Shown here: one piece after another, positions 38,978 through 55,499 of the stretch
Numbering within the stretch: position 1 is the stretch's first letter
Layout of the letters: each line of letters starts with the position of its first letter
Assembly (NCBI GenBank): GCA_913009415.1
Contig: CAJVYM010000002.1
Coordinates: forward strand, 1-55,499
Direction: 5' to 3'
DNA length: 55,499 nucleotides
Source: an uncultured bacterium
Lineage (GTDB): Bacteria; Bipolaricaulota; Bipolaricaulia; UBA7950; UBA9294
Program-made: the position numbers and the translations under genes
Notes under the pieces: model-generated
Told to the model about the DNA's origin: nothing
What the model saw: the letters and a program-made list of their open reading frames with translations, nothing else
The model's database searches: none

Positions 38978-40305
38978 TTCACCCCCAGCTTTCGCAGCTC
39001 AAGCTTCCCGACCTTGATGTAGGCGACGAGCGGGATGTTCGCCGGGCAGCCGTAGGCGCACGACCCGCATTCCACGCAGTTGTTGATGTGATAGTTTATT
39101 AGGTGATCGTAGTCCTCATGCTTCACCAGGTTGACGAACTGCAGCGGCAGCAGTCCCATCGGGCAGGTCTCGACACAGCGCCCGCAGCGGATGCAATCGT
39201 GTTCTTCGCGGAGATCGCTCTTCTTCACGAGGATGCAGTTCGTTCCCTTGATTATCGCTGTCTCAAACGATGGCTGCGCAATTCCCATCATCGGCCCGCC
39301 GAAGATCAGCTCATCGGCGTTCGAATCGCTACCGCCGCATAGGTCGATCAGGGCGGAGGCAGGCGTGCCGAAGCGTGCTAGGAAGTTCTTCGGCGTCTTC
39401 ACCAGACCGGTGACGGAGATCACCCGCTCTACGAGCGGCTTTCCCAGGACGATCGCGTCGTGGATTGCGGCCAGGGTGGCGACGTTGTGCACGAGCGCCC
39501 CCACGTCCATCGGTAGACCACCCTCTGGTACCTGTTTGCCGAGGATGGTATTGATCAGCGTCTTCTCCGCCCCCATCGGGTAGCGGCGCGGGACGACGTG
39601 CACGTTTACATCCCCTGGAAACTTCATCTGTGACACCTGTTCGCGCATCTTGGCGATCGCCTGTGGCTTGTTGTCCTCGATGGCGACGAACGCCCGCTTC
39701 ACCGAGAGGGCCTTCATCACGATCGCAAGACCGCTCAAGACACGCTCCGGATGCTCGATCATCAACCGATTATCGGCGGTGATGTACGGCTCGCACTCCG
39801 CCCCGTTGACGATCACCGTGTTGATCGTCTTCTCCGGTGGGGGGGAGAGCTTCACGTGCGAGGGGAATGTCGCACCGCCCATCCCCACGATTCCTGCACC
39901 CTTTATGCGTGAGACGATCTCTGATGGTGAAAGCTTATCCGGATCGGCGGGGGACAGTTCGATCCATTCGTCCTGCCCATCCGACTCGATGACGACCCCC
40001 GGTACCGCCTTTCCCGTCACCGAACTGGCCACTGTAGGTAGTTGCTTCACCTTTCCCGAGATGGTGGCGTGGATCGGGGCGGAGACGAACCCGCCCGCCT
40101 CGGCGATCACTTGGCCCACCTTCACTTCATCCCCCGTCTTGACGAGGACCTTCGCTGGAGCGCCGATGTGCTGCTGCAGCGGGAGGGTGACCGTCTCTGG
40201 CAAGGGAGCGCGTTCAATCGCCGTTTGCGCTCCCAACTTGGAAGACGGAGGATGTACTCCCGCGGGTCGTTTCAGGCCCAACACCTCTAGTACATGTGTG
40301 TTCAT
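38974..40305 (-). CDS. rnfC: Rnf complex subunit C
   Basis: 443 aa with GIVGMGGATFPSHVKL, CIRCGRCVETCP and CVECGSCAYGCP. Confidence 0.9.
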   Translation of the reverse strand: MNTHVLEVLGLKRPAGVHPPSSKLGAQTAIERAPLPETVTLPLQQHIGAPAKVLVKTGDEVKVGQVIAEAGGFVSAPIHATISGKVKQLPTVASSVTGKAVPGVVIESDGQDEWIELSPADPDKLSPSEIVSRIKGAGIVGMGGATFPSHVKLSPPPEKTINTVIVNGAECEPYITADNRLMIEHPERVLSGLAIVMKALSVKRAFVAIEDNKPQAIAKMREQVSQMKFPGDVNVHVVPRRYPMGAEKTLINTILGKQVPEGGLPMDVGALVHNVATLAAIHDAIVLGKPLVERVISVTGLVKTPKNFLARFGTPASALIDLCGGSDSNADELIFGGPMMGIAQPSFETAIIKGTNCILVKKSDLREEHDCIRCGRCVETCPMGLLPLQFVNLVKHEDYDHLINYHINNCVECGSCAYGCPANIPLVAYIKVGKLELRKLGVK

Positions 40306-41378
40306 TGCCCACCCTTCTCCTGATCGATATATCTGTCTACTCCTGCTGATTTGAATATCTTCTGTGGATCGTCGTAACCGATGATCAGCGCCTCCACTCC
40401 TGGGATCGTGTTCACGAGGTTGATTCCATCCACCGGTCCGAGAACGAACACCGCCGTGGCGAGGGCATCGGCCTGCACACAGGTAGGAGCGATCACGCTC
40501 GAACTCGATGAGGCATGCGACGAGTAGCCGGTACGCGGGTCCATGATATGGCCCACCTTGGCTGTGGGGTCGAAGAAACGTTCGTACTGGCCTGAGGTGG
40601 CGATTGCTCCATCGCTGATGGCGAAGGTGACGACAGAGGAGTTCTTATCCTTGGGATTGCGCAGCGCGAGCTCCCACTTCGCTCCGTTCGGCTTACCACC
40701 GAACGTGCCGATGTCACCGCCGGCGTTGATCAGAGCGTGTTGGATCCCCTGTTGGCGCAGAGTCTCCAGCCCCTTATCGACCGCGTAGCCCTTGGCGATC
40801 CCCCCGAGGGTGATCTTCATCCCCGGCTGCAGGACGATCGCTCTATGAGGAGAGGTGATCATCTCGATGCGATCGGCGCCGAGGAGGGTCATTGCCTGCG
40901 AGATAGCCTGCTGCTGCGTGGTGGGATCTAGTTCCCAGAACTGCTTTTCGGCTCCCTTTTTGTAGCGCCACAGGTCGAGAAGCGGCTCCACCGTGATGTC
41001 GAACACCCCGCCGGTGAGCTTGTAGTCGGCGATCGACTCACTGATGATCTGCCACAGATCGTTCGACGGGTTATCCAATCGCCCTTGCTCATTCAAGCGA
41101 TACGCCCCCGCCTTCGGCTCAAAGATCGACGCCTCATGATCGACCTGGGCGATGCGCGAGAATGCAGCGTTGATCGCCGTCTCGGCCTTCTTGGGATTCC
41201 GATCGTAGACGCTGATCGTCACCCAAGTATCCATCATCTCGCGACGAACCTGAAACTCGCTCATCGGTGGAGGGAAGAACGCCTTCTGTAGAGCGAACAC
41301 CGCTCCTAGAGCCACTAGAAGCAGTAGAGGAACGAGAAACCGCGCTCGGCGCGATCCAACTTGTGTTTGTGGTGACAC
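40302..41378 (-). CDS. apbE: ApbE-family FAD:protein FMN transferase
   Basis: ApbE core (MDTWVTISVY..., GGIAKGYAVD, INAGGDI) preceded by a TM/signal segment. The start is uncertain; GTG 41378 after GGAGGG was chosen, while the ORF-track start is 41486. ATGA overlap with rnfC. Confidence 0.8.
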   Translation of the reverse strand: MSPQTQVGSRRARFLVPLLLLVALGAVFALQKAFFPPPMSEFQVRREMMDTWVTISVYDRNPKKAETAINAAFSRIAQVDHEASIFEPKAGAYRLNEQGRLDNPSNDLWQIISESIADYKLTGGVFDITVEPLLDLWRYKKGAEKQFWELDPTTQQQAISQAMTLLGADRIEMITSPHRAIVLQPGMKITLGGIAKGYAVDKGLETLRQQGIQHALINAGGDIGTFGGKPNGAKWELALRNPKDKNSSVVTFAISDGAIATSGQYERFFDPTAKVGHIMDPRTGYSSHASSSSSVIAPTCVQADALATAVFVLGPVDGINLVNTIPGVEALIIGYDDPQKIFKSAGVDRYIDQEKGGQ

Positions 41379-41588
41379 ACACCCTCCCCGGAGCACAGAA
41401 GTCAATACCAGCACCGCATTGTAGCAAGCATAGCGAGTATTGGCAACTCTGGCGGTTGTATGGAGTTTGCGATTCATTCCTAGCAAAGCCAGGCAAAACG
41501 TGTGTCTCCAAGACTAAGCCTTGGCGTCAGCGTGCTTTCGCCGGGAGAGGCAAGCGCTTAGAATAGGGATGAAAAAGGAGCTGAACTC

Positions 41589-45039: not shown

Positions 45040-45179
45040 CTCACTGCGTTCAGAAGCTCCAATTGGTCCAGGAGCCGCGTTGAAGAACCCACGGCCAACT
45101 CACAACGGACTTCGTTTCTTGACAGTGACGGTAGTCAGCAGTTGACCCATTACCGGTTTCGGACTATCCTTACAGATTC

Positions 45180-45668
45180 ATGTCCGCAACAAGGGGAAGC
45201 AAGAACGATCCGGGCGAGAGTCCAAGGGTGATATCCACCGCTGCCTCGAGAAGGCCGGTGTACCCGATTAGTGTAGCCGCCGAACTGGCGGGCGTTCATC
45301 CACGCACGCTCTATATGTACGAGAAGCAGCAGCTTCTCATTCCTGCCCGACGAGGAACGTGGCGCTTCTACTCCGAGGATGACCTCGCCTGGATACGCGT
45401 GATCCGCTACCTGTTGCATGACAGTGGAATTAACATTGCCGGCTTGCAGCGCTTGCTTGCTCTCATCCCTTGCACGGAGATTTGCAGGTATGGTGCTGAT
45501 GAATGTTGTGAATGTTGTACGATGAGGACCAAGAGCATGCCGTGTTGGGCCGTTTCAGCGACACGGGGTGACCGCAAGTGCTATGAGTGCGAGGTGTACC
45601 AGACCGCTCGGTCTTGGGTTTGCTCTCCCGAGGAACTTGAACAAGCCGAGCTGGGCGACCTCACGTAG
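45180..45668 (+). CDS. MerR/HspR-like transcriptional regulator with a Cys-rich C-terminal extension
   Basis: 162 aa. The MerR HTH is YPISVAAELAGVHPRTLYMYEKQQLLIPARRGTWRFYSEDDLAWIRVIRYLLHDSGINIAGLQRLL. The C-terminus has 10 Cys in ~55 aa: IPCTEICRYGADECCECCTMRTKSMPCWAVSATRGDRKCYECEVYQTARSWVC. Confidence 0.8.
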   Translation: MSATRGSKNDPGESPRVISTAASRRPVYPISVAAELAGVHPRTLYMYEKQQLLIPARRGTWRFYSEDDLAWIRVIRYLLHDSGINIAGLQRLLALIPCTEICRYGADECCECCTMRTKSMPCWAVSATRGDRKCYECEVYQTARSWVCSPEELEQAELGDLT

Positions 45669-45968: not shown

Positions 45969-45997
45969 TTGACAATAGCCAAACTCAAGGTTAGAAT
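45969..45997 (+). promoter_or_regulatory. near-consensus sigma70 promoter upstream of the hdr cluster
   Basis: TTGACA (45969-74), 17-nt spacer, TAGAAT (45992-97), ~90 nt upstream of ATG 46088. The spacer carries CTTGA-N12-TCAAG (45968-72 / 45985-89). Confidence 0.6.
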
Positions 45998-46004
45998 CGG
46001 GGAT

Positions 46005-46022
46005 GACACTTCGACCAGTGTC
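46005..46022. promoter_or_regulatory. perfect palindrome GACACT-N6-AGTGTC at the predicted transcription start (candidate operator)
   Basis: The arms lie at 46005-46010 and 46017-46022. The same hexamer pair recurs upstream as AGTGTC (45859-64) and GACACT (45916-21). Confidence 0.35.
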
Positions 46023-46087
46023 TTTGATGTTGCAGACAAGTAAAGAAACCTCTTGTCTTATACTAGTCCACAAAGGTAAGGCGGAAC

Positions 46088-49000
46088 ATGGCGATATCAG
46101 AGTCGGCAAGGGGCAAGACGGGAGCAGTTCTCGTGGTTGGAGCCGGCATTGGAGGGATGCAAGCCTCCCTGGATCTGGCGAACGCGGGATTCAAGGTCTA
46201 TCTCGTTGAGCAAGGTCCCGCCATTGGCGGAGCGATGGCACAGCTCGACAAAACGTTCCCCACCAATGATTGCGCGATGTGCACGATGGCTCCTCGCCTC
46301 GTCGACGTCGGTCGCCAGAAGGACATTGAAGTCATCACACTCGCCGACGTCGATGGCATCGTCGGTGAGCCGGGCAACTTCACAGTAAGCCTCACCAGAC
46401 GCGCCCGGTTCATCGATGTCGAGAAGTGCACCGGATGCGGCGAATGCGCCGAGGTCTGTCCGGTCAACGTGAAGAGTGAATTCAACCTTGCTTTGAGCGA
46501 CAGAAAGGCAGTCTACCGGCCCTATCCACAGGCCTACCCGAATGCATTTGCCATCGAGAAGGACGGAAAGAAGTCGCCGTGCAAGGTCGCGTGCCCGGCG
46601 AAAATTAATGCCCAGGGCTACGTTCGCTTAATATCGCAAGGGAAGTTCATCGAGGCGCTGTCCCTCATCCGAGAAAGAAACCCGTTCCCCGGCATCTGTG
46701 GCCGGGTCTGTCACCACCCGTGCGAGACTGCCTGCATGCGCCAGGAAATCGATGAGCCGATTGCCATCCGGCCGCTCAAACGCTTCGTCACCGACTACGC
46801 CATCGCTCAGGGGGAAGAGGCGCCGGTGGTACCACCGCGCACATCCGAGGCACGAGTAGCCATCGTCGGCGCCGGACCGTCAGGCCTCACCTGCGCCCTA
46901 CGGCTCGCCGAGATGGGGTACAGCACTGTGGTCATCGATGCAGCCGATTCACCGGGCGGGATGATGACCGGATGTCTGCCCGACTACCGCATTCCGGTCG
47001 ACATCGCCCGCTACGACATCGATCGTATCCTGTCTCACGGCATCGAACTCCGTCTTGGGACCCGGGTCGGGCAGGACACAACGCTGGCGCAGCTGCGGGA
47101 CGAATACGGGGCGGTCTACGTCTCGATCGGCGCACAGGATCCAGCGCCGCTGCCTCTTGAAGGGGTGGAGACACAAGGCGTGCTCTACGGCGTTCCGTTC
47201 CTACGTGCGGCGAAGCGAAGCGAGACTCCAGAAGGATTCGGCAAGCGTGTGGTTGTGATCGGCGGGGGGAACGTGGGCATTGACTGCGCCAAGACGGCAT
47301 CCCGCATGGGCGCAGATGAGGTCCACTTGGCGTGCCTCGAGACACGTGATCTGAAGTCACCAGATAGGATGCCGGCTCACGCGTGGGAGATCGAGGAGGC
47401 CGAAGAAGAGAGTGTCATCCTCCATCCCTGTGTTGGACCGAAGCGGGTTCTAACAGAGAATGGGCGCGTCATGGGACTCGAGACGAGGGTGTGCACCGCA
47501 GTCTTCGATCGCAATGGGAAGTTCTCCCCTCAATACGATGACGACGTACCGAGCGCCCTCATCAAAGCGGATACGATCATTATCGCCATCGGCCAGCGCT
47601 CCGACTTGACCGGATTCGAGGATCTTGACCACGAACGTGGTCGGATCACCGTCGATCCCATCACGTTTCAGACGAGCATCCCCAACGTTTTCGCCGGCGG
47701 CGACATCGTCTCCGGCCCGGCCTCGGTGGTCGAGGCCGTCCAGTGCGGAAACGAGGCGGCGGTATCAATCGACCGTTTCCTCCGAGGCGAAGATCTGGCG
47801 TCAGGACGCGTCGTCGATGAAGAGACCATCGACGAGGTTCGCGAGTGGCTACCCGCGAGCCCGCGGGTGGATCTTCCCAAGGCTGCGGCAGACGAACGGC
47901 GGAAGGACTTTCGCGAGATCGAATCCGGCTATACTGAAGAGATGGCGATCGCCGAGGCGAATCGCTGTCTCAGCTGCTCGGTCTGTGCCGAATGCCTTCA
48001 GTGCGTTGAGGCCTGCAAGGCCGAAGCGATCGATCACGCCATGACCGACGATCATGTAGAACTCAACGTCGGCGCCGTCGTCCTCGCTCCGGGATTCACT
48101 CTCTACGACACCGACCGGAAGCTCGAATTCGGGTCCGCATGGACCCCCAATGTCATTTCGAGTCTACAGTTCGAGCGAATCCTGTCCGCCAGTGGTCCGT
48201 ACGAGGGCCAGGTCCTCCGGCCGTCAAGCGGAGAGCATGCCAAGCGGATCGCCTTCATTCAGTGCGTCGGATCGCGCGAAGAAGATCACGACTACTGCTC
48301 GTCGGTCTGCTGCATGTACGCCACCAAAGAAGCTATCATCGCGATGGAGCACGAACCGGACATGGAGTGCACGATCTTCTTCATGGATCTTCGCGCATTC
48401 GGCAAAGGTTTCGAGGCCTACTACGAGCGGGCCAAGGAGTTGGGTGTGCGCTACGTCCGCTGCCGGCCCTCGGCTGTCAGCCAGATCGAGGGGTCGGACG
48501 ACCTGCGCGTTGAGTACATCGACGAACAGGGACACACAGCATTCGCTGACTCCGACCTGGTAGTGCTATCGGCCGGACTCGAACCGTCGGCCGGGGGGCG
48601 GACGTTGAGTGAACGCCTCGGAGTCGAGTTGGACGTAAACCACTTCGCCTCGACGTGTGCCTTCACGCCGGTTGTAACGTCGCAGCCGGGCATCTACGTC
48701 TGCGGCACCTTCTCCGAACCGAAAGACATCCCGGAGACCGTCACCGAAGCCTCGGGGGCCGCCGCGCAAGCGATGGCGCTCCTCTCCGAGAGCCGTCATT
48801 CCCTGGTGACCAGGAAGGAGTATCCGCCGGAGAAGGACGTCCGCGGCCAGCGGCCGAGGATCGGCGTGTTTATCTGTCACTGTGGAATAAACATCGGTGG
48901 TGTCGTCGACGTTCCTGCAACCGTCGAATTCGCCCAGTCGCTGCCCGGCGTCGCCTATGCCGAGCATAACCTCTATACCTGCTCGAGCGACACCCAGGAC

Positions 49001-50524
49001 AAGATCAAGGGACTTATCGAGGAGCACCAGCTGAATCGCGTGATCGTCGCCTCATGCACTCCGCGAACGCACGAGCCACTCTTCCGGGACACGATTCGGG
49101 AGGCCGGCCTCAATCCCTACCTGTTTGAGATGGCCAACATCCGCGATCAGTGTTCGTGGGTGCATAGGAACGAGCCCGCAGCCGCAACGGAGAAGGCGAA
49201 GGAACTGGTCAAGATGGCGGTCGCCAAGTCCCGTCTGCTGGAACCTCTATATATCAGGCCCGTTCCGGTCACCAGCGCCGCACTCGTGATCGGCGGTGGC
49301 ATCGCGGGGATGTCCGCGGCACTCAACCTTGCCGACCAAGGATTCGCCGTCCATCTCGTCGAGCGGGAGTCGGAGCTGGGAGGGAATCTGAGGCACATCC
49401 GGTATCTCTTGGGGAATGAGGCTGATCCTCAAGTGGAGCTGGAGACGATCATTAAGAAGGTCAGGGCACATCCGAACGTGAACCTCTGGCTCGATTCGAC
49501 AATCCGCCGAGTCGATGGATTCGTCGGTAATTTCGTCTCCACCATCGTGCGCGGTGACGAAGAGGAACTGGTCGAGCACGGCGTTGTCATCGTTGCCACC
49601 GGCGCTGAGGCGTATGCGCCCACGGAGTATCTGTACGGTTCGGACGAGCGAGTGATCACCCAGCGGCAGCTCGAGGAGCGGCTCGCCGACGGTAAGCTGG
49701 ACGCCAAGCGAATCGTGATGATCCAATGTGTCGGCTCCCGCGAGGAAGGGCGGATGTACTGCAGCCGAATCTGCTGTGGACAGGCGATCAAGAACGCGCT
49801 CAAGATCAAAGCGGACCATCCGAAGAGCGACGTGTTCGTTCTCTACCGAGACGTCCGAACGTACGGCTTCAAGGAGCAGTACTACACGGAAGCACGGCGC
49901 CAGGGGGTGAGGTTCGTCCGCTACGATCCGGAAAACAAGCCAACCGTCGGTGCACAGGGGGAAAGGCTGCGCGTCGAGGCATTCGATCCCGTTCTGCAAA
50001 CCACGCTGGCGATTGATGCCGATTTGGTGGTATTGGCACCGGCGATCGTGCCGCGGAAGGACGCGGAGGACGTGGCGCAGATGCTCAAGGTACCGCTGAC
50101 CGGCGAGGGATTCTTCCTCGAAGCCCACATGAAGCTGCGACCGGTCGACTTCTCGGCCGACGGTGTCTTCCTTGCCGGATTGGCTCACTCTCCCAAGGGG
50201 ATCAACGAATCGATCGCTCAAGCCCAGGCGACGGCCGCCCGAGCTGCCACGATCCTTTGCAAAGACGAATACACCCCGGAGGCGATCATCGCCAGCGTTG
50301 ACGAAGAGGTGTGTGCCGGCTGCGGTATCTGTGTCTCGGTGTGCAGCTACGATGCGCCGGAGATCATCAAAGTACACGGCCGGAGCGTCTCTCATGTCAA
50401 CCAGGCCTTGTGCAAGGGCTGCGGAGCGTGCGCCAGTGCGTGTCCCTCCGGAGCGATGCAGCAACTCGGATTCCGGCCGAGACAGATCGCCGAAATGGTC
50501 AGTGCGGCACTGGAGCGGAAATGA
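46088..50524 (+). CDS. hdrA: giant HdrA-like flavoprotein: HdrA FAD domain with an inserted NfnB/GltD-like NAD(P)H oxidoreductase module, fused to a second HdrA-like unit
   Basis: 1478 aa. HdrA signatures: VVGAGIGGMQASLDLA, LDKTFPTNDCAMC, CTGCGECAEVCP, IQCVGSREEDHDYCSSVCCMYATK. GltD/NfnB-like insert: CPAKINAQGYV...NPFPGICGRVCHHPCETAC, VAIVGAGPSGL, VVVIGGGNVGIDCA, VFAGGDI. Second unit: IGVFICHCGINIGG, ASCTPRTHE, NPYLFEMANIRDQCSWVH, VIGGGIAGMSAALNLA, IQCVGSREEGRMYCSRICC, and 2x CxxCxxCxxxCP at the C-terminus. Confidence 0.9.
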   Translation: MAISESARGKTGAVLVVGAGIGGMQASLDLANAGFKVYLVEQGPAIGGAMAQLDKTFPTNDCAMCTMAPRLVDVGRQKDIEVITLADVDGIVGEPGNFTVSLTRRARFIDVEKCTGCGECAEVCPVNVKSEFNLALSDRKAVYRPYPQAYPNAFAIEKDGKKSPCKVACPAKINAQGYVRLISQGKFIEALSLIRERNPFPGICGRVCHHPCETACMRQEIDEPIAIRPLKRFVTDYAIAQGEEAPVVPPRTSEARVAIVGAGPSGLTCALRLAEMGYSTVVIDAADSPGGMMTGCLPDYRIPVDIARYDIDRILSHGIELRLGTRVGQDTTLAQLRDEYGAVYVSIGAQDPAPLPLEGVETQGVLYGVPFLRAAKRSETPEGFGKRVVVIGGGNVGIDCAKTASRMGADEVHLACLETRDLKSPDRMPAHAWEIEEAEEESVILHPCVGPKRVLTENGRVMGLETRVCTAVFDRNGKFSPQYDDDVPSALIKADTIIIAIGQRSDLTGFEDLDHERGRITVDPITFQTSIPNVFAGGDIVSGPASVVEAVQCGNEAAVSIDRFLRGEDLASGRVVDEETIDEVREWLPASPRVDLPKAAADERRKDFREIESGYTEEMAIAEANRCLSCSVCAECLQCVEACKAEAIDHAMTDDHVELNVGAVVLAPGFTLYDTDRKLEFGSAWTPNVISSLQFERILSASGPYEGQVLRPSSGEHAKRIAFIQCVGSREEDHDYCSSVCCMYATKEAIIAMEHEPDMECTIFFMDLRAFGKGFEAYYERAKELGVRYVRCRPSAVSQIEGSDDLRVEYIDEQGHTAFADSDLVVLSAGLEPSAGGRTLSERLGVELDVNHFASTCAFTPVVTSQPGIYVCGTFSEPKDIPETVTEASGAAAQAMALLSESRHSLVTRKEYPPEKDVRGQRPRIGVFICHCGINIGGVVDVPATVEFAQSLPGVAYAEHNLYTCSSDTQDKIKGLIEEHQLNRVIVASCTPRTHEPLFRDTIREAGLNPYLFEMANIRDQCSWVHRNEPAAATEKAKELVKMAVAKSRLLEPLYIRPVPVTSAALVIGGGIAGMSAALNLADQGFAVHLVERESELGGNLRHIRYLLGNEADPQVELETIIKKVRAHPNVNLWLDSTIRRVDGFVGNFVSTIVRGDEEELVEHGVVIVATGAEAYAPTEYLYGSDERVITQRQLEERLADGKLDAKRIVMIQCVGSREEGRMYCSRICCGQAIKNALKIKADHPKSDVFVLYRDVRTYGFKEQYYTEARRQGVRFVRYDPENKPTVGAQGERLRVEAFDPVLQTTLAIDADLVVLAPAIVPRKDAEDVAQMLKVPLTGEGFFLEAHMKLRPVDFSADGVFLAGLAHSPKGINESIAQAQATAARAATILCKDEYTPEAIIASVDEEVCAGCGICVSVCSYDAPEIIKVHGRSVSHVNQALCKGCGACASACPSGAMQQLGFRPRQIAEMVSAALERK

Positions 50525-51081
50525 TTCCGGACACAAGCTTTGCCGCCGCCGTCCAAGAACGAAGCGGAGAGAAACTGGCCGCCTGCTATCAGTGTCTGAA
50601 GTGCACGGCCGGCTGCCCTCTGTCTTCCCACATGGATCTCAAACCGAACGCGATTCTGCGGATGATCCAATACGGGCAGCGAGAGCGCGTTCTAAAAAGC
50701 CACGCCATCTGGTTCTGCGTCTCGTGCATGACGTGTGGTGTGCGCTGCCCGAACGACATCGACATCAGCGTGGTCATGGACACCCTGCGGGAGATGGCGA
50801 TCGAAGAGGGCTACGCCTACGCCGCGGAGAAGCGCGTTGTGCAATTGCACGAAGAGTTCGTCCGGTCGGTCAAGCTTTGGGGGCGGCTGCATGAGGTGAC
50901 TTTCTACATGGCATACATGGCCCGCAGCTTAGACATAATAGCCAGCATCCCATCCGGACTGGCGTTGATGGCGCGAGGGAAACTTCCGTTTCTGCCGAAG
51001 CGAATCAAGGGCGGAAAGCAGATTAAGCGGCTGTTCAAGGAAGCATACAAGACCAAGGGCCAGCTGGAGGAGGAGGCATAG
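50521..51081 (+). CDS. hdrC: heterodisulfide reductase subunit C-like protein
   Basis: 186 aa from ATG 50521 (ATGA overlap with hdrA). Motifs: CYQCLKCTAGCP and CVSCMTCGVRCP. Confidence 0.9.
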   Translation: MIPDTSFAAAVQERSGEKLAACYQCLKCTAGCPLSSHMDLKPNAILRMIQYGQRERVLKSHAIWFCVSCMTCGVRCPNDIDISVVMDTLREMAIEEGYAYAAEKRVVQLHEEFVRSVKLWGRLHEVTFYMAYMARSLDIIASIPSGLALMARGKLPFLPKRIKGGKQIKRLFKEAYKTKGQLEEEA

Positions 51082-51956
51082 TGGCCGAGTATTCGTTCTA
51101 CCCCGGTTGCACGGCACACTCGACCGGACTCGAGTACAACCTGTCGCTTCATGCCGTCGCCCACGCCTTGGGTATCGAGTTGAAAGAGATTGACGATTGG
51201 AACTGCTGTGGCGGTGCTGCAGCACGCAGCATCAGCAATCTTCTCGGTCTGGCGCTTCCTGCCCGGAACATCGCTAAGGCACAGGAATGTGACCTTCCTC
51301 TGGTGATCCCCTGCCCAGGGTGCTTCAACGCGACGCGACGCGCGCAATATGCGTTGATAAACGATCCCGAGATGAGAGAAAGGCTCGAGGAGGTCGTCGA
51401 ATTCAAGTACAAGCCCGGGCTCGAGATCGTGTCGATGCACCAAGTCTTCCTCGAACCGGATGTACTGGATCGGCTGGCCGAATCCGTGAACAGGCCGTTA
51501 CGCGGCTTGAAGATCGCGTCCTATTACGGATGTGCACTCGTCCGCCATCCCGAGATCGTGCAGATGGGCGACTACGAAAATCCCGTCTTTTTCGATCGGC
51601 TGGTCGAGTTGCTCGGCGGCGAGCCGATCGACTGGTCGTACAAGACCGACTGTTGCGGCGCCGATCTGGCAATGACCCACGGCAAGATCGCGGCTGAGAT
51701 CGCCGACAACATCGTAGCTGGGGCGATCGAAGCAGGTGCGGACTGCCTCATGGCCAGCTGCGGGCTTTGTCAGGTCAACCTCGACATGAGACAGACGGGA
51801 AAGGAGCAGAAAAAGCTCCCCACGTTCTACTTTACGGAGCTGATGGGCGTCGCCCTCAATCTGCCCAAGCAGAGCCAGTGGTGGGGCATGCACATCGTGA
51901 GTCCGAAGCCCCTGTTGAGGGCAACGCGGCTTCTGCGGCGTGGGGGTCGATCATGA
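51081..51956 (+). CDS. hdrB: heterodisulfide reductase subunit B-like protein (two CCG domains)
   Basis: 291 aa, GTG start overlapping the hdrC stop. Motifs: YPGCT, DWNCCGG, YYGCA, CCGADL. Confidence 0.9.
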   Translation: MAEYSFYPGCTAHSTGLEYNLSLHAVAHALGIELKEIDDWNCCGGAAARSISNLLGLALPARNIAKAQECDLPLVIPCPGCFNATRRAQYALINDPEMRERLEEVVEFKYKPGLEIVSMHQVFLEPDVLDRLAESVNRPLRGLKIASYYGCALVRHPEIVQMGDYENPVFFDRLVELLGGEPIDWSYKTDCCGADLAMTHGKIAAEIADNIVAGAIEAGADCLMASCGLCQVNLDMRQTGKEQKKLPTFYFTELMGVALNLPKQSQWWGMHIVSPKPLLRATRLLRRGGRS

Positions 51957-54900
51957 GCCCCGGCGCGAATCGAGACGTGCTTGTGGTCGGAGCCGGAATC
52001 GCCGGACTTCAGTCGTCGCTGCTTCTGGCTGAGAAGGGACACCACGTATGGTTGTTGGAGAGCGCTCCGGCCATCGGTGGGTTCTTCCCGCTTCTCGACC
52101 GGACGTTCCCGACGAACTCATGCGGCGTCTGCTTCATGAGTCCAACACCTCCGGCGTTCTGTCCGATCTACGAGAGTGAGTTCCACGAGAACATTACCCT
52201 GCTCCCTCACTCCGAACTTCGCGAGGTCACCGGCGAGGCGGGCAACTTCAGCGTCTCGTACACCAGGAAGCCCAGGTTCGTCGACCCACAACGGTGCACG
52301 CTGTGCAATCGCTGCGCCGAGGTCTGCCCGGTGGAGGTCGAACGTGAATTCGGCGCCGGACTGGAGAAGCGGAAAGCGATCTACCTTCCGTTCCCTCAGG
52401 CAATTCCGCGCTCCTACGTCATCGATTCCGAGACATGTACCCGTTGCGGAGCCTGTGCAGAGGCCTGTCCCGTCGACGCCGTCGATCTCGACGCCCAACC
52501 GGACGGGGATACGCTAAACGTTGGCGCCATCGTCCTCGGCTTCGGGTTCGAGCCGTTTCGAGGGGAGCACAAGGGTGAGTACGGCCTCGGCCGCTACGAC
52601 AATGTCCTGTCGAGCGTCCAGTTCGAGCGCATGCTCAGTCTGTCGAGCCCAACAACCGGGCTCCCGACGCGACGCTCAGACGGTCGGAGTGTCAAACGGG
52701 TGGCGTTCATCCAGTGCGTCGGATCCCGTGACATCGCCTGCGGTCAGGGCTACTGCTCAACCATCTGCTGCATGTACGCCACCAAGCAAGCAATGCTGTC
52801 CATGGCCCGCACTCCGGAACTCGAAGCGACGATCTTCTACATGGATGTGCGGCCGATGGGGAAAGGCTACGAAAGGTATTACGAGCGGGCCAAGAACGAG
52901 TACGGTGTCCGCTATGTTAGGAGCGCCGTTTCGACGTTGAGAGAGCTCAAACAGACTCGCGATCTGCGCATTCGATACGCCCAGGACGACGGAGCATTGA
53001 TCGATGAGGAATTCGATCTCGTCGTCCTCTCTCTGGGATTCACACCTCCTCCAAGTGTCACTGAAACAGCTCAGCTCCTTGATGTTGAACTGGACGAGTA
53101 TGGCTTCTGCCTCACCGAGCCGTTCAACCCGACACAGACGTCCCGCCCCGGGGTTTTCGTCGCCGGCGCGTTCCGGCAACCGATGGACATCCCCGAGACG
53201 GTGGTTGAAGCATCCGCGGCGGCATCGGAGGCTTCGGCGCTGCTCTCATCTGTAACCGCCGCCGAGCCCGGCACAGATACTGCGGATACTGCGAGTGCCG
53301 TTAAGAGCGGACAGACTGAGGAGACGTCGAGGGTAGCCGTCTTCTTCTGCGATAGCAAGGGGATGCTGCGAGCCGGGATCCCACTGGACGAACTCATCAC
53401 AGAAGCGCGCTCCAACCCGGCCGTGTGCCACGTCGAGGAGATTGACGCAACGGTTCTTCGCGACGGTGCGGAGAAGATCGCCGAGAGAATCTCGGACCAA
53501 GGGCTGGATCGCGCTGTGCTCGCCGGGTACCGTGCTATGTCGTTGAAGAATGCACTGCGGCGGATGCCCAACAATGAGATGGCGCGCTGCGTGATCGAGT
53601 ACACAAGTATCGGAGAGCAGTGCGTCAGCGTCCATTCCGAGAATCCGGAGGCCGCTCTGCGCGTCGCGGGGGCACAACTTCGTGCCGCCATTAGGAAGGC
53701 TTCTCTGGCAACGCATCAGGCTGCGAGCGTACGTCCGCTCGAGTCCCGCGTCCTCGTGGTTGGGGGAGGGGTAGCCGGGATTACGTGCGCCCTGAGTCTT
53801 GCTGAGCAAGGAAACCCGGTGACACTCATCGAAGCGTCGGAAAGACTGGGTGGCAATGCGCTGCAGGCACGATACACCATCGATGGGAGCGACGTGCAAC
53901 CCTATCTCGCCGACCTGCTCGCCCGCGCAACAGGACATCCGGAAATCGAAATTCTGACCCAATCTACGTTGCAGGAGCTCACGGGAATCTGGGGAGCTTA
54001 CCGATCCGTCATTTCCACCCACGGTGACGAGAAGAACGTCACCCACGGAGCCGTCGTCTTTGCGGTCGGCGGAGCGGAGATGGTTCCGAACGAGTACTTG
54101 TACGGAGAGCATCCAAACGTGGTCACGCAACGGACGTTGGAGCAGATGCTCGCCGACAGCGATGTCAGAACCACCGCCGCGAAGTGTCTGGTGATGATCC
54201 AATGCGTCGGCTCGCGCGACGAGGATCACCCCTATTGCAGCCACGTCTGTTGCACGCACGCGGTGAAGAACGCCCTGAAAGTGAAGGAGCTGAATCCGGA
54301 GGCATCGATCGTCGTGCTCTACCGCGACGTAAGGACCTATGGACCGTATGAGGAGTACTACCGCCGGGCGAGGGAGGTTGGCGTCATGTTTGTTCGCTAT
54401 GACCCCGACGAAAAGCCAGTCGTCTCAGCGGAGGGAGGATCGCTGAGCGTCACGTTCCGCGATCCGGTCGCGCTCGACACACTGACGTTCGATGCGGATC
54501 TGGTCGCACTCAGCGCGGGAATACTGCCGAACGAGCAGATCACCGAACTCGCCGAGATTGCTCATCTGGATCTCGATCCGGACGGGTTCTTCGCCGAGGC
54601 GAATCCGAAGTCGGCTCCGCTCGATGCCGTCGATCGAGGGAAGTACTTCTGCGGGCTGTGTCATTCCCCGCAGCACATCGACGAGGCCATTCTGCAGGGA
54701 CGGGCCGCGGCGGCCCGTGCGGCGGCCCTTCTTTGGCGCGGGGTCGCGGAGCTGGCGGACAACCTGGCTACGGTGAACGAGAGGCGCTGTACCGGATGCG
54801 GCCTTTGCGTCAGCGCCTGCCCATACGAAGCCCGCGTCATCGACGAGGTCAGCGGGAAGGCGAAGGTGCTGGTGGAACTGTGTAAGGGATGCGGAACCTG

Positions 54901-54988
54901 TGTTGTGACGTGTCCGAATGCCGCCAGCCAACAAGAGAGTTACGAACGAGCAACCGTGATGGAAGTACTGGACGAGGTAATGACGTAG
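51953..54988 (+). CDS. hdrA: second, paralogous double HdrA-like flavoprotein (no NfnB insert)
   Basis: 1011 aa from ATG 51953 (ATGA overlap with hdrB). Motifs: VVGAGIAGLQSSLLLA, LDRTFPTNSCGVC, CTLCNRCAEVCP, CTRCGACAEACP, IQCVGSRDIACGQGYCSTICCMYATK, VVGGGVAGITCALSLA, IQCVGSRDEDHPYCSHVCC, CTGCGLCVSACP, CKGCGTCVVTCP. Collinear with the 1478-aa protein. Confidence 0.9.
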   Translation: MSPGANRDVLVVGAGIAGLQSSLLLAEKGHHVWLLESAPAIGGFFPLLDRTFPTNSCGVCFMSPTPPAFCPIYESEFHENITLLPHSELREVTGEAGNFSVSYTRKPRFVDPQRCTLCNRCAEVCPVEVEREFGAGLEKRKAIYLPFPQAIPRSYVIDSETCTRCGACAEACPVDAVDLDAQPDGDTLNVGAIVLGFGFEPFRGEHKGEYGLGRYDNVLSSVQFERMLSLSSPTTGLPTRRSDGRSVKRVAFIQCVGSRDIACGQGYCSTICCMYATKQAMLSMARTPELEATIFYMDVRPMGKGYERYYERAKNEYGVRYVRSAVSTLRELKQTRDLRIRYAQDDGALIDEEFDLVVLSLGFTPPPSVTETAQLLDVELDEYGFCLTEPFNPTQTSRPGVFVAGAFRQPMDIPETVVEASAAASEASALLSSVTAAEPGTDTADTASAVKSGQTEETSRVAVFFCDSKGMLRAGIPLDELITEARSNPAVCHVEEIDATVLRDGAEKIAERISDQGLDRAVLAGYRAMSLKNALRRMPNNEMARCVIEYTSIGEQCVSVHSENPEAALRVAGAQLRAAIRKASLATHQAASVRPLESRVLVVGGGVAGITCALSLAEQGNPVTLIEASERLGGNALQARYTIDGSDVQPYLADLLARATGHPEIEILTQSTLQELTGIWGAYRSVISTHGDEKNVTHGAVVFAVGGAEMVPNEYLYGEHPNVVTQRTLEQMLADSDVRTTAAKCLVMIQCVGSRDEDHPYCSHVCCTHAVKNALKVKELNPEASIVVLYRDVRTYGPYEEYYRRAREVGVMFVRYDPDEKPVVSAEGGSLSVTFRDPVALDTLTFDADLVALSAGILPNEQITELAEIAHLDLDPDGFFAEANPKSAPLDAVDRGKYFCGLCHSPQHIDEAILQGRAAAARAAALLWRGVAELADNLATVNERRCTGCGLCVSACPYEARVIDEVSGKAKVLVELCKGCGTCVVTCPNAASQQESYERATVMEVLDEVMT

Positions 54989-55040
54989 TCGGGAGATCGG
55001 ACGGCAAGTCGTTCGGACCCGGTGGATAAAGGAGGAGGCA

Positions 55041-55365
55041 GTGGACCAATTCGAGCCGAAGATCATCGCGTTCCTGTGCAACTGGTGCACCTACACCGGC
55101 GCGGACCTTGCGGGAACCAGCAGGCTCCAGTACCCGCCGAACGTGCGAATCGTGCGGCTGATGTGCACCGGCGCGGTAGACACAATCTATGTGCTGAAGG
55201 CTCTGATAGAGGGCGCGGACGGTGTTCTGATCGGTGGATGCCACCCCGGGGACTGTCACTACCAGAACGGGAACTACAAGGCACGGCGGAGGGTCGCAAT
55301 CCTGAAGGAGATCCTCGGGCAGATCGGGTTCGACGACGATCGGATCTGGCTCCGCTGGATCAGTG
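55041..55365 (+). CDS. mvhD: MvhD-like (methyl-viologen-reducing hydrogenase delta subunit family) protein, 3'-truncated by adapter sequence
   Basis: GTG 55041 behind AAGGAGGAGG. IIAFLCNWCTYTGADLAGTSRLQYPPNVRIVRLMCTG...GCHPGDCHY. The ORF-track C-terminus (EIGRAHV, stop at 55386) is encoded by Illumina adapter. Confidence 0.85.
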
Positions 55366-55499
55366 AGATCGGAAGAGCACACGTCTGAACTCCAGTCACA
55401 CTGATATATCTCGTATGCCGACTTCTGCTTGCAAAAAAAAAGTCACACTCATATATCTCGTATCCCGTCTTCTCCTTAAAATACAGATTGCAACACTTT
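55366..55499. other. Illumina TruSeq adapter read-through (non-biological sequence)
   Basis: AGATCGGAAGAGCACACGTCTGAACTCCAGTCAC + ACTGATAT + ATCTCGTATGCCGaCTTCTGCTTG, then poly-A. A second error-ridden partial copy follows (GTCACACTCATATATCTCGTATCCCGTCTTCTCCTT). Confidence 0.93.

What the first reader, a model, noticed from the sequence alone, without database searches (positions are those of the whole stretch)
46088..55365. Unusual Hdr module: two paralogous double-HdrA giants flanking hdrC-hdrB, followed by mvhD
All junctions are start/stop overlaps (ATGA at 50521-24, TAGTG at 51079-83, ATGA at 51953-56), so this is one translationally coupled unit.

Both large proteins (1478 and 1011 aa) are collinear. 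Each has an HdrA FAD domain with the TFPTN(D/S)C motif and ferredoxin clusters. This is followed by a unit resembling the HdrA N-terminal domain, then a second FAD domain (IQCVGSR-type) and 2x[4Fe-4S].

Canonical HdrA is about 650 aa and is present once per HdrABC. Here the complex would carry four HdrA-like flavin modules. In acetogen-type clusters hdrCBA-mvhD is followed by metV-metF, but that part is cut off by the adapter. The physiological disulfide or acceptor partner is therefore unknown.
Basis: partly seen in the sequence, partly recalled or inferred. Interest (0 to 1): 0.7.

Follow-up and report, generated by a model that had tools for sequence, protein, structure and literature searches.

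The report
NADH-linked giant Hdr redox operon
A marine Bipolaricaulota bacterium carries a real operon with two giant fused HdrA flavoproteins flanking HdrC and HdrB; both giant types are already described and widespread but biochemically poorly understood, so this is an interesting variant and not a new kind of system.

Summary
The ORFs, the overlapping junctions and the motifs are all present as described. An independent assembly (L081, 99.975% identical) confirms them, so neither giant is a chimera.

G1 (1478 aa) equals G2 (1011 aa) plus a 461-aa GltD/NfnB-like FAD and NAD(P)H module, inserted into the ferredoxin domain of the first HdrA unit. This is the domain order published for Moorella thermoacetica HdrA (1487 aa, oxidises NADH), also called 'HdrL' or 'type III HdrA'. 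G2 is a 'type II' fused HdrA.

Both types are common. For G1, 91 of the best 120 protein clusters are full-length look-alikes. For G2, at least 568 loci were found in species-representative genomes.

The gene after mvhD is FdhB-like, not metV. The core hdrC-hdrB-doubleHdrA-mvhD-fdhB-like is conserved across phyla, and 27 of 45 loci carry a second HdrA pair upstream.

The most likely function is an NADH-linked flavin-based electron-bifurcating or confurcating complex. It would connect NADH, ferredoxin and an unknown HdrB substrate, working alongside the neighbouring Rnf complex.

Verdict: new variant of a known but biochemically uncharacterised kind. Interest is moderate.

The parts
45969..45997 (+). 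Promoter-like site TTGACA-17-TAGAAT, about 90 nt upstream of G1
   Evidence: 11 of 12 consensus matches. The hexamers are conserved upstream of the G1 homologues in L084 and L085. This is a consensus match only.
46005..46058 (+). Leader with two inverted repeats: GACACT-N6-AGTGTC (46005-46022) and AGACAAG-N11-CTTGTCT (46034-46058). Possible operator or leader hairpin.
   Evidence: The second repeat is recognisable in L084 and L085. Function was not tested.
46088..50524 (+). G1: 1478-aa 'type III / HdrL / Moorella-type' HdrA, made of two fused HdrA units with an inserted NAD(H) module
   Evidence: 91 of the best 120 homologous clusters are 1466-1570 aa at 98-100% coverage.
46088..46567 (+). G1 unit A, first part (aa 1-160): FAD Rossmann motif GAGIGG, TFPTNDC62AMC65 (equivalents of Cys194/Cys197), and the first cluster motif of the inserted ferredoxin domain
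   Evidence: Numbering to 5ODC HdrA was derived from the G2 alignment and carried over to G1 through the G1-G2 alignment.
46568..47980 (+). G1 GltD/NfnB-like insertion (aa about 161-631): two [4Fe-4S] clusters (Fer4_20), FAD (GAGPSG) and a dinucleotide site GGGNVG...ACLETRD
   Evidence: Pfam and NCBIfam hits. Best solved relatives are 9BOV_A, 9N5U_A 'NfnA', 8OH5_C and 5JCA_L NfnI. The YRR NADPH motif is replaced by CLE.
47981..48802 (+). G1 unit A, second part (aa 632-905): second ferredoxin motif CAECLQCVEAC, FERIL (E356 equivalent), QCVGSR...CSSVCCMYATK (cluster plus K409 equivalent). No C-terminal ferredoxin domain.
48845..49237 (+). G1 MvhD-like 'N-terminal' domain (aa about 920-1050) with five conserved Cys (930, 932, 965, 990, 1022)
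   Evidence: G1 residues 924-1154 match positions 1-231 of the NCBIfam HdrA2 model, and the domain aligns with the G2 middle domain that matches 5ODC HdrA residues 5-173.
49265..50524 (+). G1 unit B (aa about 1060-1400; GGGIAG, QCVGSR...CSRICCGQAIK; no TFPT/Cys197, no inserted ferredoxin) plus a C-terminal 2x[4Fe-4S] ferredoxin domain (aa about 1401-1478)
50521..51081 (+). hdrC-like gene, 186 aa, two [4Fe-4S] motifs. Its start overlaps the G1 stop (ATGA).
   Evidence: TIGR03290 scores 75.7 bits, below the cutoff of 160.
51081..51956 (+). hdrB-like gene, 291 aa, two complete CCG domains. Its GTG start overlaps the hdrC stop (TAGTG).
   Evidence: Both C...CC...C..C patterns can be read directly in the translation.
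51953..54988 (+). G2: 1011-aa 'type II' fused double HdrA. Unit A (aa 1-440) has Cys57/Cys60 and an intact inserted ferredoxin domain. The middle domain (aa about 455-590) is degenerate and MvhD-like. Unit B (aa about 595-935) is followed by a C-terminal ferredoxin domain.
   Evidence: At least 568 related loci exist in species-representative genomes.
55041..55365 (+). mvhD (FlpD family), cut at residue 108 by the adapter. The full gene is 140 aa in L081.
45180..45668 (+). MerR-family regulator gene, a conserved upstream neighbour (possible regulator; not shown)
   Evidence: Pfam MerR_1. The same 162-aa MerR gene and a preceding gene of about 210 aa lie upstream of the 81%-identical G1 in L084.
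35442..41486 (-). apbE-rnfCDGEAB (ferredoxin:NAD+ oxidoreductase) as context. The likely functional partner.
   Evidence: In L085 the same operon sits directly upstream of the Hdr cluster and runs in the same direction.

Best explanation
This is a chromosomal operon of a marine Candidatus Bipolaricaulota (Acetothermia) bacterium. It encodes a soluble HdrABC-type flavin and iron-sulfur complex for flavin-based electron bifurcation or confurcation.

The parts:
- G1 is two HdrA units fused into one chain, acting as its own 'heterodimer'. Unit A supplies the Cys197-type ligand and the inserted ferredoxin domain. [quoted passage not shown] A GltD/NfnB-like FAD and NAD(H) module splits the inserted ferredoxin domain.
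- G2 is the same fused scaffold without that module.
- HdrC and HdrB (both CCG domains intact) form the high-potential exit.
- MvhD and the FdhB-like protein encoded just past the contig end form a further entry or exit branch.

Proposed working: NADH is oxidised at G1's inserted module. Electrons pass through its two clusters and the split ferredoxin domain to an HdrA-type FAD. There they are split between HdrC/HdrB, which reduce a still unknown disulfide or other acceptor, and a low-potential route that ends at ferredoxin (G2's intact ferredoxin domain and/or MvhD with the FdhB-like protein). The reaction could also run in reverse as a confurcation. Together with the neighbouring Rnf complex this would balance the NADH and ferredoxin pools.

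Shown: genes, domains, cofactor motifs, synteny and distribution.
Inferred: NADH rather than NADPH, that all the proteins form one complex, the direction of the reaction, and the acceptor.
For: - Domains and motifs.
- All four thioredoxin-reductase-like units keep the FAD motif, the four cluster cysteines and the E356/K409 signature that the literature uses for bifurcating HdrA (PMC9430772; PMC12054007).
- G1's domain order and length match M. thermoacetica HdrA, for which NADH:benzyl viologen activity of 190 U/mg is quoted (also PMC5861303).
- In G1's dinucleotide site, GGGNTAMD...YRR of the closest solved NfnB-like relatives is replaced by GGGNVG...CLE, with an acidic residue. This variant occurs in 65 of the 120 closest homologues, and 26 keep YRR.
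- The complementary Cys197 / N-terminal-domain pattern of fused HdrA is described in PMC9012536.
- FdhB-MvhD-HdrA is a solved electron path in methanogen complexes. The FdhB-like neighbour matches 7BKB_E at 5e-30.
- Conserved core synteny hdrC-hdrB-doubleHdrA-mvhD-fdhB-like: 55 of 67, 53 of 75 and 33 of 68 loci.
- Start/stop overlaps and a single promoter-like site.
- Rnf is nearby, and directly adjacent in L085.
- The same parts list (HdrABC, an FeS protein, MvhD, HdrL) is expressed as protein in Syntrophobacter fumaroxidans (PMC5947623).
Against: - No biochemistry exists for any member with this gene order.
- Complex formation between G1 and G2 rests on operon structure alone.
- G2 has lost three of the five cysteines of its middle domain. 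On the methanogen model this cluster lies on the path to the inserted ferredoxin domain, so G2's ferredoxin branch may not work as drawn.
- HdrB, HdrC and both giants score below every NCBIfam equivalog cutoff, so the substrate cannot be transferred from methanogen Hdr.
- The NADH/NADPH call rests on a motif rule, not on a structure or an assay.
- S. ovata HdrBCA-MvhD showed no bifurcation in vitro, so an HdrA signature does not guarantee bifurcation.
- No direct sequence comparison with Moth_1194 or Sfum_0824 could be run.
Confidence: 0.55

Rival explanations
1. Two separate enzymes share one operon. One is a G1-type NADH dehydrogenase that serves a partner encoded elsewhere. The other is the widely conserved core HdrCB-G2-MvhD-FdhB-like complex, which has its own donor.
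For: - The core hdrC-hdrB-doubleHdrA-mvhD-fdhB-like occurs without any G1-type gene in most loci.
- G1-type proteins occur with other partners: hdrCB-G1-mvhD-mvhG in L083, and G1-mvhDGA in L086.
- The window's HdrC and HdrB are about 54% identical to the pair next to G2-type genes in Syntrophaceae, against 32-47% for the other pair in those loci.
Against: - The G1 stop overlaps the hdrC start (ATGA), and only one promoter-like site was found upstream.
- The order G1-hdrC-hdrB-G2 is kept in relatives at 90% and 69% identity.
- 27 of 45 loci have a second HdrA pair in exactly this position, which suggests the two pairs work together.
Confidence: 0.25
2. [quoted passage not shown] This is the first reader's idea.
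For: - G1 has the architecture of the M. thermoacetica HdrA that belongs to that enzyme.
- The host phylum includes Wood-Ljungdahl acetogens, and some Acetothermia have metVF next to hdrA-mvhD (PMC9586279).
- Carbon monoxide dehydrogenase genes lie near relatives' clusters: cooC-cooS-cooF in L028, and DUF3786 plus a CooC-like gene in L082.
Against: - The gene directly after mvhD is FdhB-like, not metV.
- In the relatives with sequence beyond that gene (L085, L004, L002, L003, L028, L009) none of the downstream genes examined is metV or metF. L085 and L004 continue with hdrC2, [frhB] and a third double HdrA, and L004 then with mvhD2 and flxCBA-like genes.
- In the Acetothermia described in PMC9586279 the metVF-linked hdrA-mvhD is separate from hdrBC.
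Confidence: 0.1
3. The complex is driven by H2 or formate, not NADH. The MvhD/FdhB-like branch would dock a hydrogenase (MvhAG) or FdhA encoded elsewhere, as in methanogen Mvh-Hdr or Fdh-Hdr complexes.
For: - MvhD and the FdhB-like protein are the adaptor subunits of those complexes.
- G1-type genes are followed by mvhD-mvhG-mvhA in L086 and by mvhD-mvhG in L083.
- hdrBCA-mvhD-fdhBA clusters are described in sulfate reducers and Chloroflexi.
Against: - No fdhA or mvhAG lies next to the FdhB-like gene in the relatives checked.
- G1 carries its own complete dinucleotide-binding flavin module.
Confidence: 0.08
4. Artefact: one or both giant ORFs are assembly chimeras or fused by a sequencing error.
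For: The contig ends in adapter sequence, which shows imperfect read trimming.
Against: - An independent assembly gives identical ORFs.
- Full-length homologues of both giants are abundant across phyla.
- Relatives at 90%, 81% and 69-71% identity keep the same gene lengths and order.
Confidence: 0.01

Closest known systems
HdrA of the Moorella thermoacetica MetFV-HdrABC-MvhD methylene-tetrahydrofolate reductase (Mock et al. 2014, as described in PMC9430772 and PMC5861303)
   Same: G1 has the same length class (1478 vs 1487 aa) and the same domain order: ferredoxin plus a thioredoxin-reductase-like domain interrupted by a GltD FAD/NAD(P)H module, then an MvhD-like domain, a second thioredoxin-reductase-like domain without inserted ferredoxin, and a C-terminal ferredoxin. 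It has three FAD sites. HdrC, HdrB and MvhD are encoded alongside.
   Different: - The gene order here is G1-hdrC-hdrB-G2-mvhD-fdhB-like instead of hdrCBA-mvhD-metVF.
- A second giant HdrA is present.
- No metVF is adjacent.
- The sequence-level relationship to Moth_1194 was not tested.
HdrL and the HdrABC/HdrL cluster (Desulfobacterium autotrophicum HdrL1-3; Syntrophobacter fumaroxidans Sfum_0819-0824)
   Same: Both have an HdrA/glutamate-synthase-small-subunit fusion with an NADH site. The parts list matches: HdrA, HdrB, HdrC, an FdhB-like FeS protein, MvhD and HdrL. The proposed role is as an NADH-linked confurcating system.
   Different: - The gene order differs.
- There is no selenocysteine here.
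- The host is not a sulfate reducer, so DsrC is not an obvious acceptor.
- HdrA in the window is itself a fused double unit.
Type II (fused) and type III (GltD-inserted, including 'A9-TRX-C') HdrA of ANME and other methane-metabolising archaea (PMC9012536, PMC12054007)
   Same: G2 corresponds to type II and G1 to type III with an extra C-terminal thioredoxin-reductase domain. [quoted passage not shown] The insertion sits inside the inserted ferredoxin domain. Type III genes occur in clusters with several hdrA genes.
   Different: - The host is bacterial.
- The unit order is permuted relative to ANME HdrA3/4: here the Cys197-bearing unit comes first.
- G2's middle domain has lost its cluster ligands.
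Methanogen MvhADG-HdrABC and FdhAB-MvhD-HdrABC complexes (PDB 5ODC, 7BKB, 8RVU)
   Same: The HdrA fold and cofactor motifs match (G2 against 5ODC_A, E = 1e-138). HdrB has two CCG domains, HdrC has two clusters, and MvhD and FdhB act as adaptors.
   Different: - In methanogens a single 650-aa HdrA forms homodimers.
- The substrate there is CoM-S-S-CoB.
- All NCBIfam equivalog cutoffs are missed here.
- No hydrogenase or FdhA catalytic subunit lies in the cluster.
Class II benzoyl-CoA reductase (Bam) of Geobacter metallireducens and FlxABCD-HdrABC of Desulfovibrio
   Same: In Bam the HdrA-like subunit has two flavin sites carrying the bifurcation signature and tandem bifurcation has been proposed for it. 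FlxABCD-HdrABC is included as an NADH dehydrogenase/heterodisulfide reductase on the strength of its cited paper title. NuoF-like or Flx-like NADH modules occupy the equivalent positions in relatives L001, L004, L035 and L038.
   Different: The window has no Bam tungsten subunit and no flxABC. NADH input is built into G1 instead.

Membership tests
Methanogen-type HdrABC (CoB-CoM heterodisulfide reductase) | HdrA with FAD, the thioredoxin-reductase-domain [4Fe-4S] cluster and the E356/K409 signature | tested here: met
   All four units carry GxGxxG, QCVGSR...CxxxCC..K and the FER/LE(E/Q) glutamate.
Methanogen-type HdrABC (CoB-CoM heterodisulfide reductase) | HdrB with two CCG motifs and HdrC with two [4Fe-4S] clusters | tested here: met
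   Pfam CCG matches in two stretches, and both cysteine patterns can be read in the translation. HdrC has Fer4_17 and two CxxCxxCxxxCP motifs.
Methanogen-type HdrABC (CoB-CoM heterodisulfide reductase) | Scores above the NCBIfam equivalog cutoffs for HdrA, HdrB and HdrC | tested here: not met
   Scores against cutoffs: G1 980 vs 1100, G2 764 vs 1100, HdrB 141 vs 345, HdrC 76 vs 160.
Methanogen-type HdrABC (CoB-CoM heterodisulfide reductase) | CoM-S-S-CoB as substrate | not testable with these tools
   The host is a bacterium (Bipolaricaulota). No methanogenesis genes are in the window.
Moorella-type MetFV-HdrABC-MvhD methylene-THF reductase | HdrA of about 1490 aa with a GltD module interrupting the first thioredoxin-reductase/ferredoxin unit | tested here: met
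   G1's domain map matches the description in PMC9430772. The match is at architecture level only.
Moorella-type MetFV-HdrABC-MvhD methylene-THF reductase | metV-metF in the same cluster after mvhD | tested here: not met
   The next gene is FdhB-like. No metVF was seen among the downstream genes examined in relatives.
Moorella-type MetFV-HdrABC-MvhD methylene-THF reductase | NADH-dependent benzyl viologen reduction by HdrA | not testable with these tools
   This needs an enzyme assay. Only the dinucleotide-site motif (CLE instead of YRR) could be read.
HdrL / type III HdrA (GltD-inserted HdrA) | A GltD/NfnB-like FAD and NAD(P)H module fused within HdrA | tested here: met
   PRK12771 scores 522 bits against a cutoff of 516 over G1 161-663. 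Fer4_20 and Pyr_redox_2 also match. The insertion lies between the two cluster motifs of the inserted ferredoxin domain.
HdrL / type III HdrA (GltD-inserted HdrA) | mvhD directly downstream of hdrL (D. autotrophicum pattern) | tested here: not met
   hdrC follows G1, and mvhD follows G2.
Type II fused HdrA | [quoted passage not shown] | tested here: met
   In G2, residues 4-378 match 5ODC 141-510, residues 460-627 match 5ODC 5-173, and residues 868-1001 match 5ODC 506-641. Cys197 equivalents occur only in unit A. The middle-domain ligands are lost in G2.
Nfn/Stn-type transhydrogenase | An NfnB-like subunit with an NADPH site (GxGxxA...YRR) plus an NfnA/PyrK-like or NuoF-like partner | tested here: not met
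   The module is homologous (9N5U_A, 8OH5_C and 5JCA_L), but its site reads GGGNVG...CLE and no NfnA-like gene is in the cluster.
FlxABCD-HdrABC | flxABC genes (an NAD-binding flavoprotein plus two FeS proteins) next to hdrABC | tested here: not met
   They are absent from the window. Flx-like genes occur only in the second module of relatives (L004, L035, L038, L086).

The most novel reading that the evidence does not exclude
G1, HdrCB, G2, MvhD and the FdhB-like protein form one multi-flavin machine. It may also include the third double HdrA and the Flx-like module that follow in the nearest relatives. The window alone would supply five FAD sites. The machine would perform two bifurcations in series, as proposed for class II benzoyl-CoA reductase. 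It would couple NADH, ferredoxin and an unknown thiol/disulfide, or a third two-electron carrier, giving a previously unrecognised energy-coupling partner of Rnf in an acetogen-related phylum.
Probability: 0.15. Interest if true: 0.7.

Novelty: new variant of a known kind. Interest (0 to 1): 0.4.

Why it matters
HdrA-based bifurcating complexes set the energy budget of many strict anaerobes. Only the methanogen enzymes are understood structurally. Fused (type II) and GltD-inserted (type III, HdrL, Moorella-type) HdrA proteins are very common in genomes but have almost no biochemistry.

This operon places one of each around a single HdrCB, next to Rnf, in a Bipolaricaulota lineage. It is a compact, well-defined candidate for asking three questions: how NADH enters an HdrA, whether fused HdrA proteins act as built-in heterodimers, and what bacterial HdrB reduces.

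It does not define a new class of system.

Tried and rejected
- **Assembly chimera:** rejected using an independent contig and abundant full-length homologues.
- **metVF immediately downstream:** rejected.
- **Mock et al. 2014 (PMC4135698):** not held. The Moorella comparison therefore rests on secondary descriptions.
- **2024 bioRxiv preprint on HdrA evolution:** nothing on fusions.
- **Bipolaricaulota papers** (Oman serpentinite fluids, PMC9586279; Lost City, bioRxiv 10.1101/2022.01.25.477282): they mention only generic MvhD-HdrABC or metVF-hdrA-mvhD.
- **Direct comparison with Moth_1194 or Sfum_0824:** not possible.
- **Structure prediction:** not run. G1 exceeds the 1200-aa limit. No multimer mode or coordinates are available, so the key question (cluster distances within and between subunits) could not be answered. 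A monomer fold search would only repeat the sequence match to 5ODC.
- **NCBIfam scan of the FdhB-like protein:** only generic ferredoxin hits.
- **Synteny statistics:** these cover the best 80 of at least 568 loci, so the fractions are for close to mid-distance relatives only.
- **First tblastn table:** too verbose to use. It was replaced by per-ORF architecture strings.


Full report
**1. What is in the sequence**

- G1: 46088-50524, 1478 aa.
- An hdrC-like gene: 50521-51081, 186 aa.
- An hdrB-like gene: 51081-51956, 291 aa, GTG start.
- G2: 51953-54988, 1011 aa.
- mvhD: from 55041 onward.

The three junctions are start/stop overlaps: ATGA, TAGTG and ATGA. mvhD follows after 52 nt and a strong AAAGGAGGAGG ribosome-binding site. 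From 55366 the window is Illumina adapter.

A separately assembled 12.4-kb contig from an ENA marine metagenome (L081) is 99.975% identical over window 43575-55365. It has the same five gene calls and continues past the adapter. It gives a complete 140-aa MvhD and the first 60 codons of a further gene. Neither giant ORF is therefore an assembly chimera.

**2. Host and surroundings**

MnmG from the window is 89-90% identical to proteins named Candidatus Bipolaricaulota. The window is ordinary chromosome. It carries mraW, a penicillin-binding protein, thyX, guaA, the pyr operon, mnmG and tpiA.

An apbE-rnfCDGEAB operon lies on the minus strand at 35442-41486. A MerR-family gene (45180-45668) sits upstream of G1, together with a promoter-like TTGACA-17-TAGAAT at 45969-45997. 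Both are conserved in relatives.

**3. Anatomy of the giants**

Against solved HdrA (5ODC_A, E = 1e-138), G2 aligns in three pieces:
- Residues 4-378 match HdrA 141-510, the thioredoxin-reductase domain including the inserted ferredoxin domain.
- Residues 460-627 match HdrA 5-173, the N-terminal MvhD-like domain and the start of a second thioredoxin-reductase domain.
- Residues 868-1001 match HdrA 506-641, the end of that domain plus the C-terminal ferredoxin domain.

Each giant is thus two HdrA units in one chain.
- Unit A has the TFPTxxCxxC motif (equivalents of Cys194/Cys197) and the inserted ferredoxin domain. It has no N-terminal domain and no C-terminal ferredoxin domain.
[quoted passage not shown] It has no Cys197 and no inserted ferredoxin domain.

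All four units keep the FAD Rossmann motif, the QCVGSR...CxxxCC cluster cysteines, and the glutamate and lysine equivalent to E356/K409.

G1 and G2 are collinear at 45% identity (G1 9-170 vs G2 4-173) and 41% (G1 632-1475 vs G2 161-1010). Unit A of G1 matches unit B of G2 at only about 29%. The fusion therefore predates the G1/G2 split.

**4.

G1 residues about 171-631 are a 461-aa insertion between the two cluster motifs of the inserted ferredoxin domain. It is a GltD/NfnB-like module:
- Fer4_20 at 161-241 and Pyr_redox_2 at 256-553.
- NCBIfam PRK12771 at 522 bits, above its cutoff of 516.

Its closest solved relatives are the NfnB-like parts of 9BOV_A, 9N5U_A ('NfnA'), 8OH5_C and NfnI 5JCA_L.

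At the dinucleotide site, the closest solved NfnB-like relatives read GGGNTAMD...YRR, which I take to be the NADPH-type form. G1 reads GGGNVGID...ACLETRD, with an acidic residue and a 5-residue insertion. The same 'CLE' form is in 65 of the 120 closest homologues, and 26 keep YRR. By the usual Rossmann-fold rule (cited in PMC12054007) this predicts NADH. This is an inference.

The window therefore encodes five flavin sites, not four.

**5. These architectures are already known**

- PMC9430772 describes M. thermoacetica HdrA as a 162.8-kDa, 1487-aa protein. Its N-terminal ferredoxin and thioredoxin-reductase-like domain is interrupted by a GltD domain (clusters, FAD, NAD(P)H). Then come an MvhD-like domain, a second thioredoxin-reductase-like domain lacking the inserted ferredoxin, and a C-terminal ferredoxin. 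It has three FAD sites and oxidises NADH at 190 U/mg with benzyl viologen. That is G1's map.
- The same fusion was named HdrL in Desulfobacterium autotrophicum.
- It is expressed as protein in Syntrophobacter fumaroxidans in a cluster with HdrABC, an FdhB-like FeS protein and MvhD. That is the same parts list as here.
- In archaea, fused HdrA ('type II') and GltD-inserted HdrA ('type III', including a class with an extra C-terminal thioredoxin-reductase domain) have been catalogued. The idea that fused units act as their own heterodimer has been proposed, along with the suggestion that the insertion turns the ferredoxin exit into an NADH entry. No biochemistry exists for those types.

**6. Distribution**

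For G1, 91 of the best 120 protein clusters are 1466-1570 aa with 98-100% coverage at 52-90% identity. The source names attached to some of these clusters include Anaerolineae, Cloacimonas, WOR-3, Thermoplasmata and Promethearchaeota. The other 29 are variants of about 1650 aa.

For G2, at least 568 loci were found in species-representative genomes.

**7. Synteny**

Per-ORF architecture strings were made for the 80 best loci. The counts are:
- hdrC-hdrB lies directly upstream of the double HdrA in 55 of 67 loci with enough flank.
- mvhD lies directly downstream in 53 of 75.
- mvhD plus an FdhB-like gene follows in 33 of 68. Flx-like genes follow instead in 7.
- Of the 45 loci that have hdrC-hdrB directly upstream and at least 6.5 kb of upstream flank, 27 carry a second HdrA pair in front of hdrCB. 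In 22 of these (mostly Syntrophaceae, Thermodesulfobacteriota and some Chloroflexota) the pair is split into two genes and has its own hdrC'B'.

Four HdrA units around hdrCB is therefore a recurrent design.

The upstream slot varies:
- A G1-type protein in the window lineage: the window itself, L082 at 90% identity and L085 at 69%.
- A 1076-1082-aa protein whose N-terminus is a [2Fe-2S] domain, preceded by a NuoF-like gene, in L001 and L004.

Every version brings an NADH-type input module.

**8. What lies past the contig end**

The 60 codons after mvhD in L081 are 67% identical to the start of the FdhB-like gene at the same position in the Bipolaricaulia MAG L002. They also match more than 30 other loci there.

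That protein's best solved relatives are the FdhB subunits of the methanogen Fdh-MvhD-Hdr complexes (7BKB_E at 5e-30, 9T1S_M, 8RVU_E). Pfam gives only a weak FrhB_FdhB_C hit, and NCBIfam gives only generic ferredoxin hits.

In the nearest relatives with more sequence, the cluster continues:
- L085: hdrC2 (158 aa, no hdrB), frhB and a third double HdrA.
- L004: hdrC2, a third double HdrA, mvhD2 and flxCBA-like genes.
- L028: cooC-cooS-cooF.

No metVF was seen among the downstream genes examined.

**9. How it most likely works**

[quoted passage not shown] They leave by two routes:
- through the thioredoxin-reductase-domain cluster to HdrC and HdrB;
- through the cluster formed by the N-terminal domain and Cys197 to the inserted ferredoxin domain, and then to ferredoxin.

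Applied here, NADH would be oxidised at G1's inserted module. Its two clusters and the split ferredoxin domain would feed an HdrA FAD. HdrC/HdrB, with both CCG domains intact, would reduce an unknown acceptor. A low-potential branch would run through MvhD with the FdhB-like protein and/or G2's uninterrupted ferredoxin domain to ferredoxin. The reaction could also run in reverse.

Rnf lies 4.6 kb away in the window and is directly adjacent and co-directional in L085. It would link the same NADH and ferredoxin pools to the membrane potential.

I put this at about 0.55. The domain and synteny facts are shown. NADH specificity, single-complex assembly, direction and acceptor are inferred.

**10. 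A caveat and a lead**

In 48 of the 60 aligned double-HdrA sequences (58 from loci plus the window's G1 and G2) the middle-domain cysteines are conserved. In the window's G2 and its closest clade (L001, L003, L004, L005, L028, L035, L038) three of the five are replaced, often by Tyr, while the Cys194/197 equivalents stay.

On the methanogen model that cluster lies on the way to the inserted ferredoxin domain. G2's ferredoxin branch may therefore be rewired, or may depend on the partner giant, whose domain is intact.

**11. Rivals**

- Two separate enzymes in one operon (0.25). The core occurs without G1 elsewhere, and G1-type proteins pair with Mvh in L083 and L086. Against this, the overlaps and the conserved order favour one unit.
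- A methylene-THF reductase with metVF elsewhere (0.1).
- An H2- or formate-driven complex with catalytic subunits elsewhere (0.08).
- Artefact (0.01, refuted).

**12. Verdict**

Both giant types and the idea behind them are in the literature, and the proteins are abundant. This is a new variant (gene order, two fused giants sharing one HdrCB, an orphan FdhB-like partner, a degenerate middle domain in G2) of a known, biochemically under-studied kind. Interest is moderate at 0.4. The value lies in offering a compact test case for how NADH enters HdrA and what bacterial HdrB reduces.

Noticed in passing
window 55366-55499: The last 134 bases are Illumina adapter read-through (AGATCGGAAGAGCACACGTCTGAACTCCAGTCAC...) followed by low-quality junk. 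The contig end is an artefact. L081 gives the true continuation.
   Followed up: yes
window 53315-53722 (G2 aa about 455-590); loci L001, L003, L004, L005, L028, L035, L038: The MvhD-like middle domain of G2 has lost 3 of its 5 conserved cysteines (equivalents of G1 C932, C965 and C990, often replaced by Tyr). This holds only in the window's clade. 48 of the 60 aligned double-HdrA sequences keep them, and the Cys194/197 equivalents are retained everywhere. It implies a missing [4Fe-4S] cluster on the presumed ferredoxin branch.
   Followed up: partly
L085:10001-14971 and 29 of the 120 closest G1 homologues (P0004-P0006, P0032 and others): Variants of G1 of about 1650 aa carry a duplicated dinucleotide-binding subdomain. 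In L085 one copy reads GGGNAAMD...VLYRR (NADPH-type) and the other GGGNVAVD...ACLES (the window's type). This hints at a built-in NADH/NADPH pair, reminiscent of Nfn.
   Followed up: partly
window 35442-41486 (- strand); L085:3848-9714: apbE-rnfCDGEAB lies 4.6 kb from the Hdr operon on the opposite strand. In the 69%-identical relative L085 the same Rnf operon is immediately upstream of the Hdr cluster and runs in the same direction.
   Followed up: partly
window 45969-46058: A near-consensus promoter-like site (TTGACA-17-TAGAAT) is followed by two inverted repeats, GACACT-N6-AGTGTC and AGACAAG-N11-CTTGTCT. The promoter hexamers and the second repeat are recognisable upstream of G1 homologues in L084 and L085. 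A MerR-family gene (45180-45668) is a conserved neighbour.
   Followed up: partly
L085:19921-24971; L004:13511-21634; L086:18203-24503: In relatives the cluster continues with an hdrC-like gene lacking hdrB (158-162 aa), usually a bona fide FrhB/FdhB (N and C domains; absent in L004), and a third double HdrA. L004 and L086 then add a second mvhD and Flx-like FeS and NAD-binding genes. In L085 and L004 it follows the G2-mvhD-fdhB-like core; in L086 it follows G1-like-mvhDGA. The window's operon is probably only the first half of a larger locus.
   Followed up: partly
L028:14639-17850; L082:770-2142: Carbon monoxide dehydrogenase genes (cooC-cooS-cooF) directly follow the FdhB-like gene in L028. 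A DUF3786 gene plus a CooC-like ATPase precede the 90%-identical G1 in L082. This may link the cluster to CO or Wood-Ljungdahl metabolism.
   Followed up: no
L009:14883-19810: In a Syntrophaceae MAG the cluster is followed by an FeS protein, a fumarate-reductase-type flavoprotein (FAD_binding_2) and succinyl-CoA synthetase. The window's HdrB scores best against the SdhE anchor of methylmenaquinol:fumarate reductase (158 bits, below cutoff).
   Followed up: no
window 1142-2362 (-), 4291-7437 (+), 29796-33089 (+): Three other features: a DDE transposase gene; a UvrD-type helicase with an N-terminal DUF559/restriction-endonuclease-like domain; and a 1097-aa DUF11/PKD/lamin-tail surface protein. 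A similar large Ig/PKD protein precedes apbE-rnf in L085.
   Followed up: no
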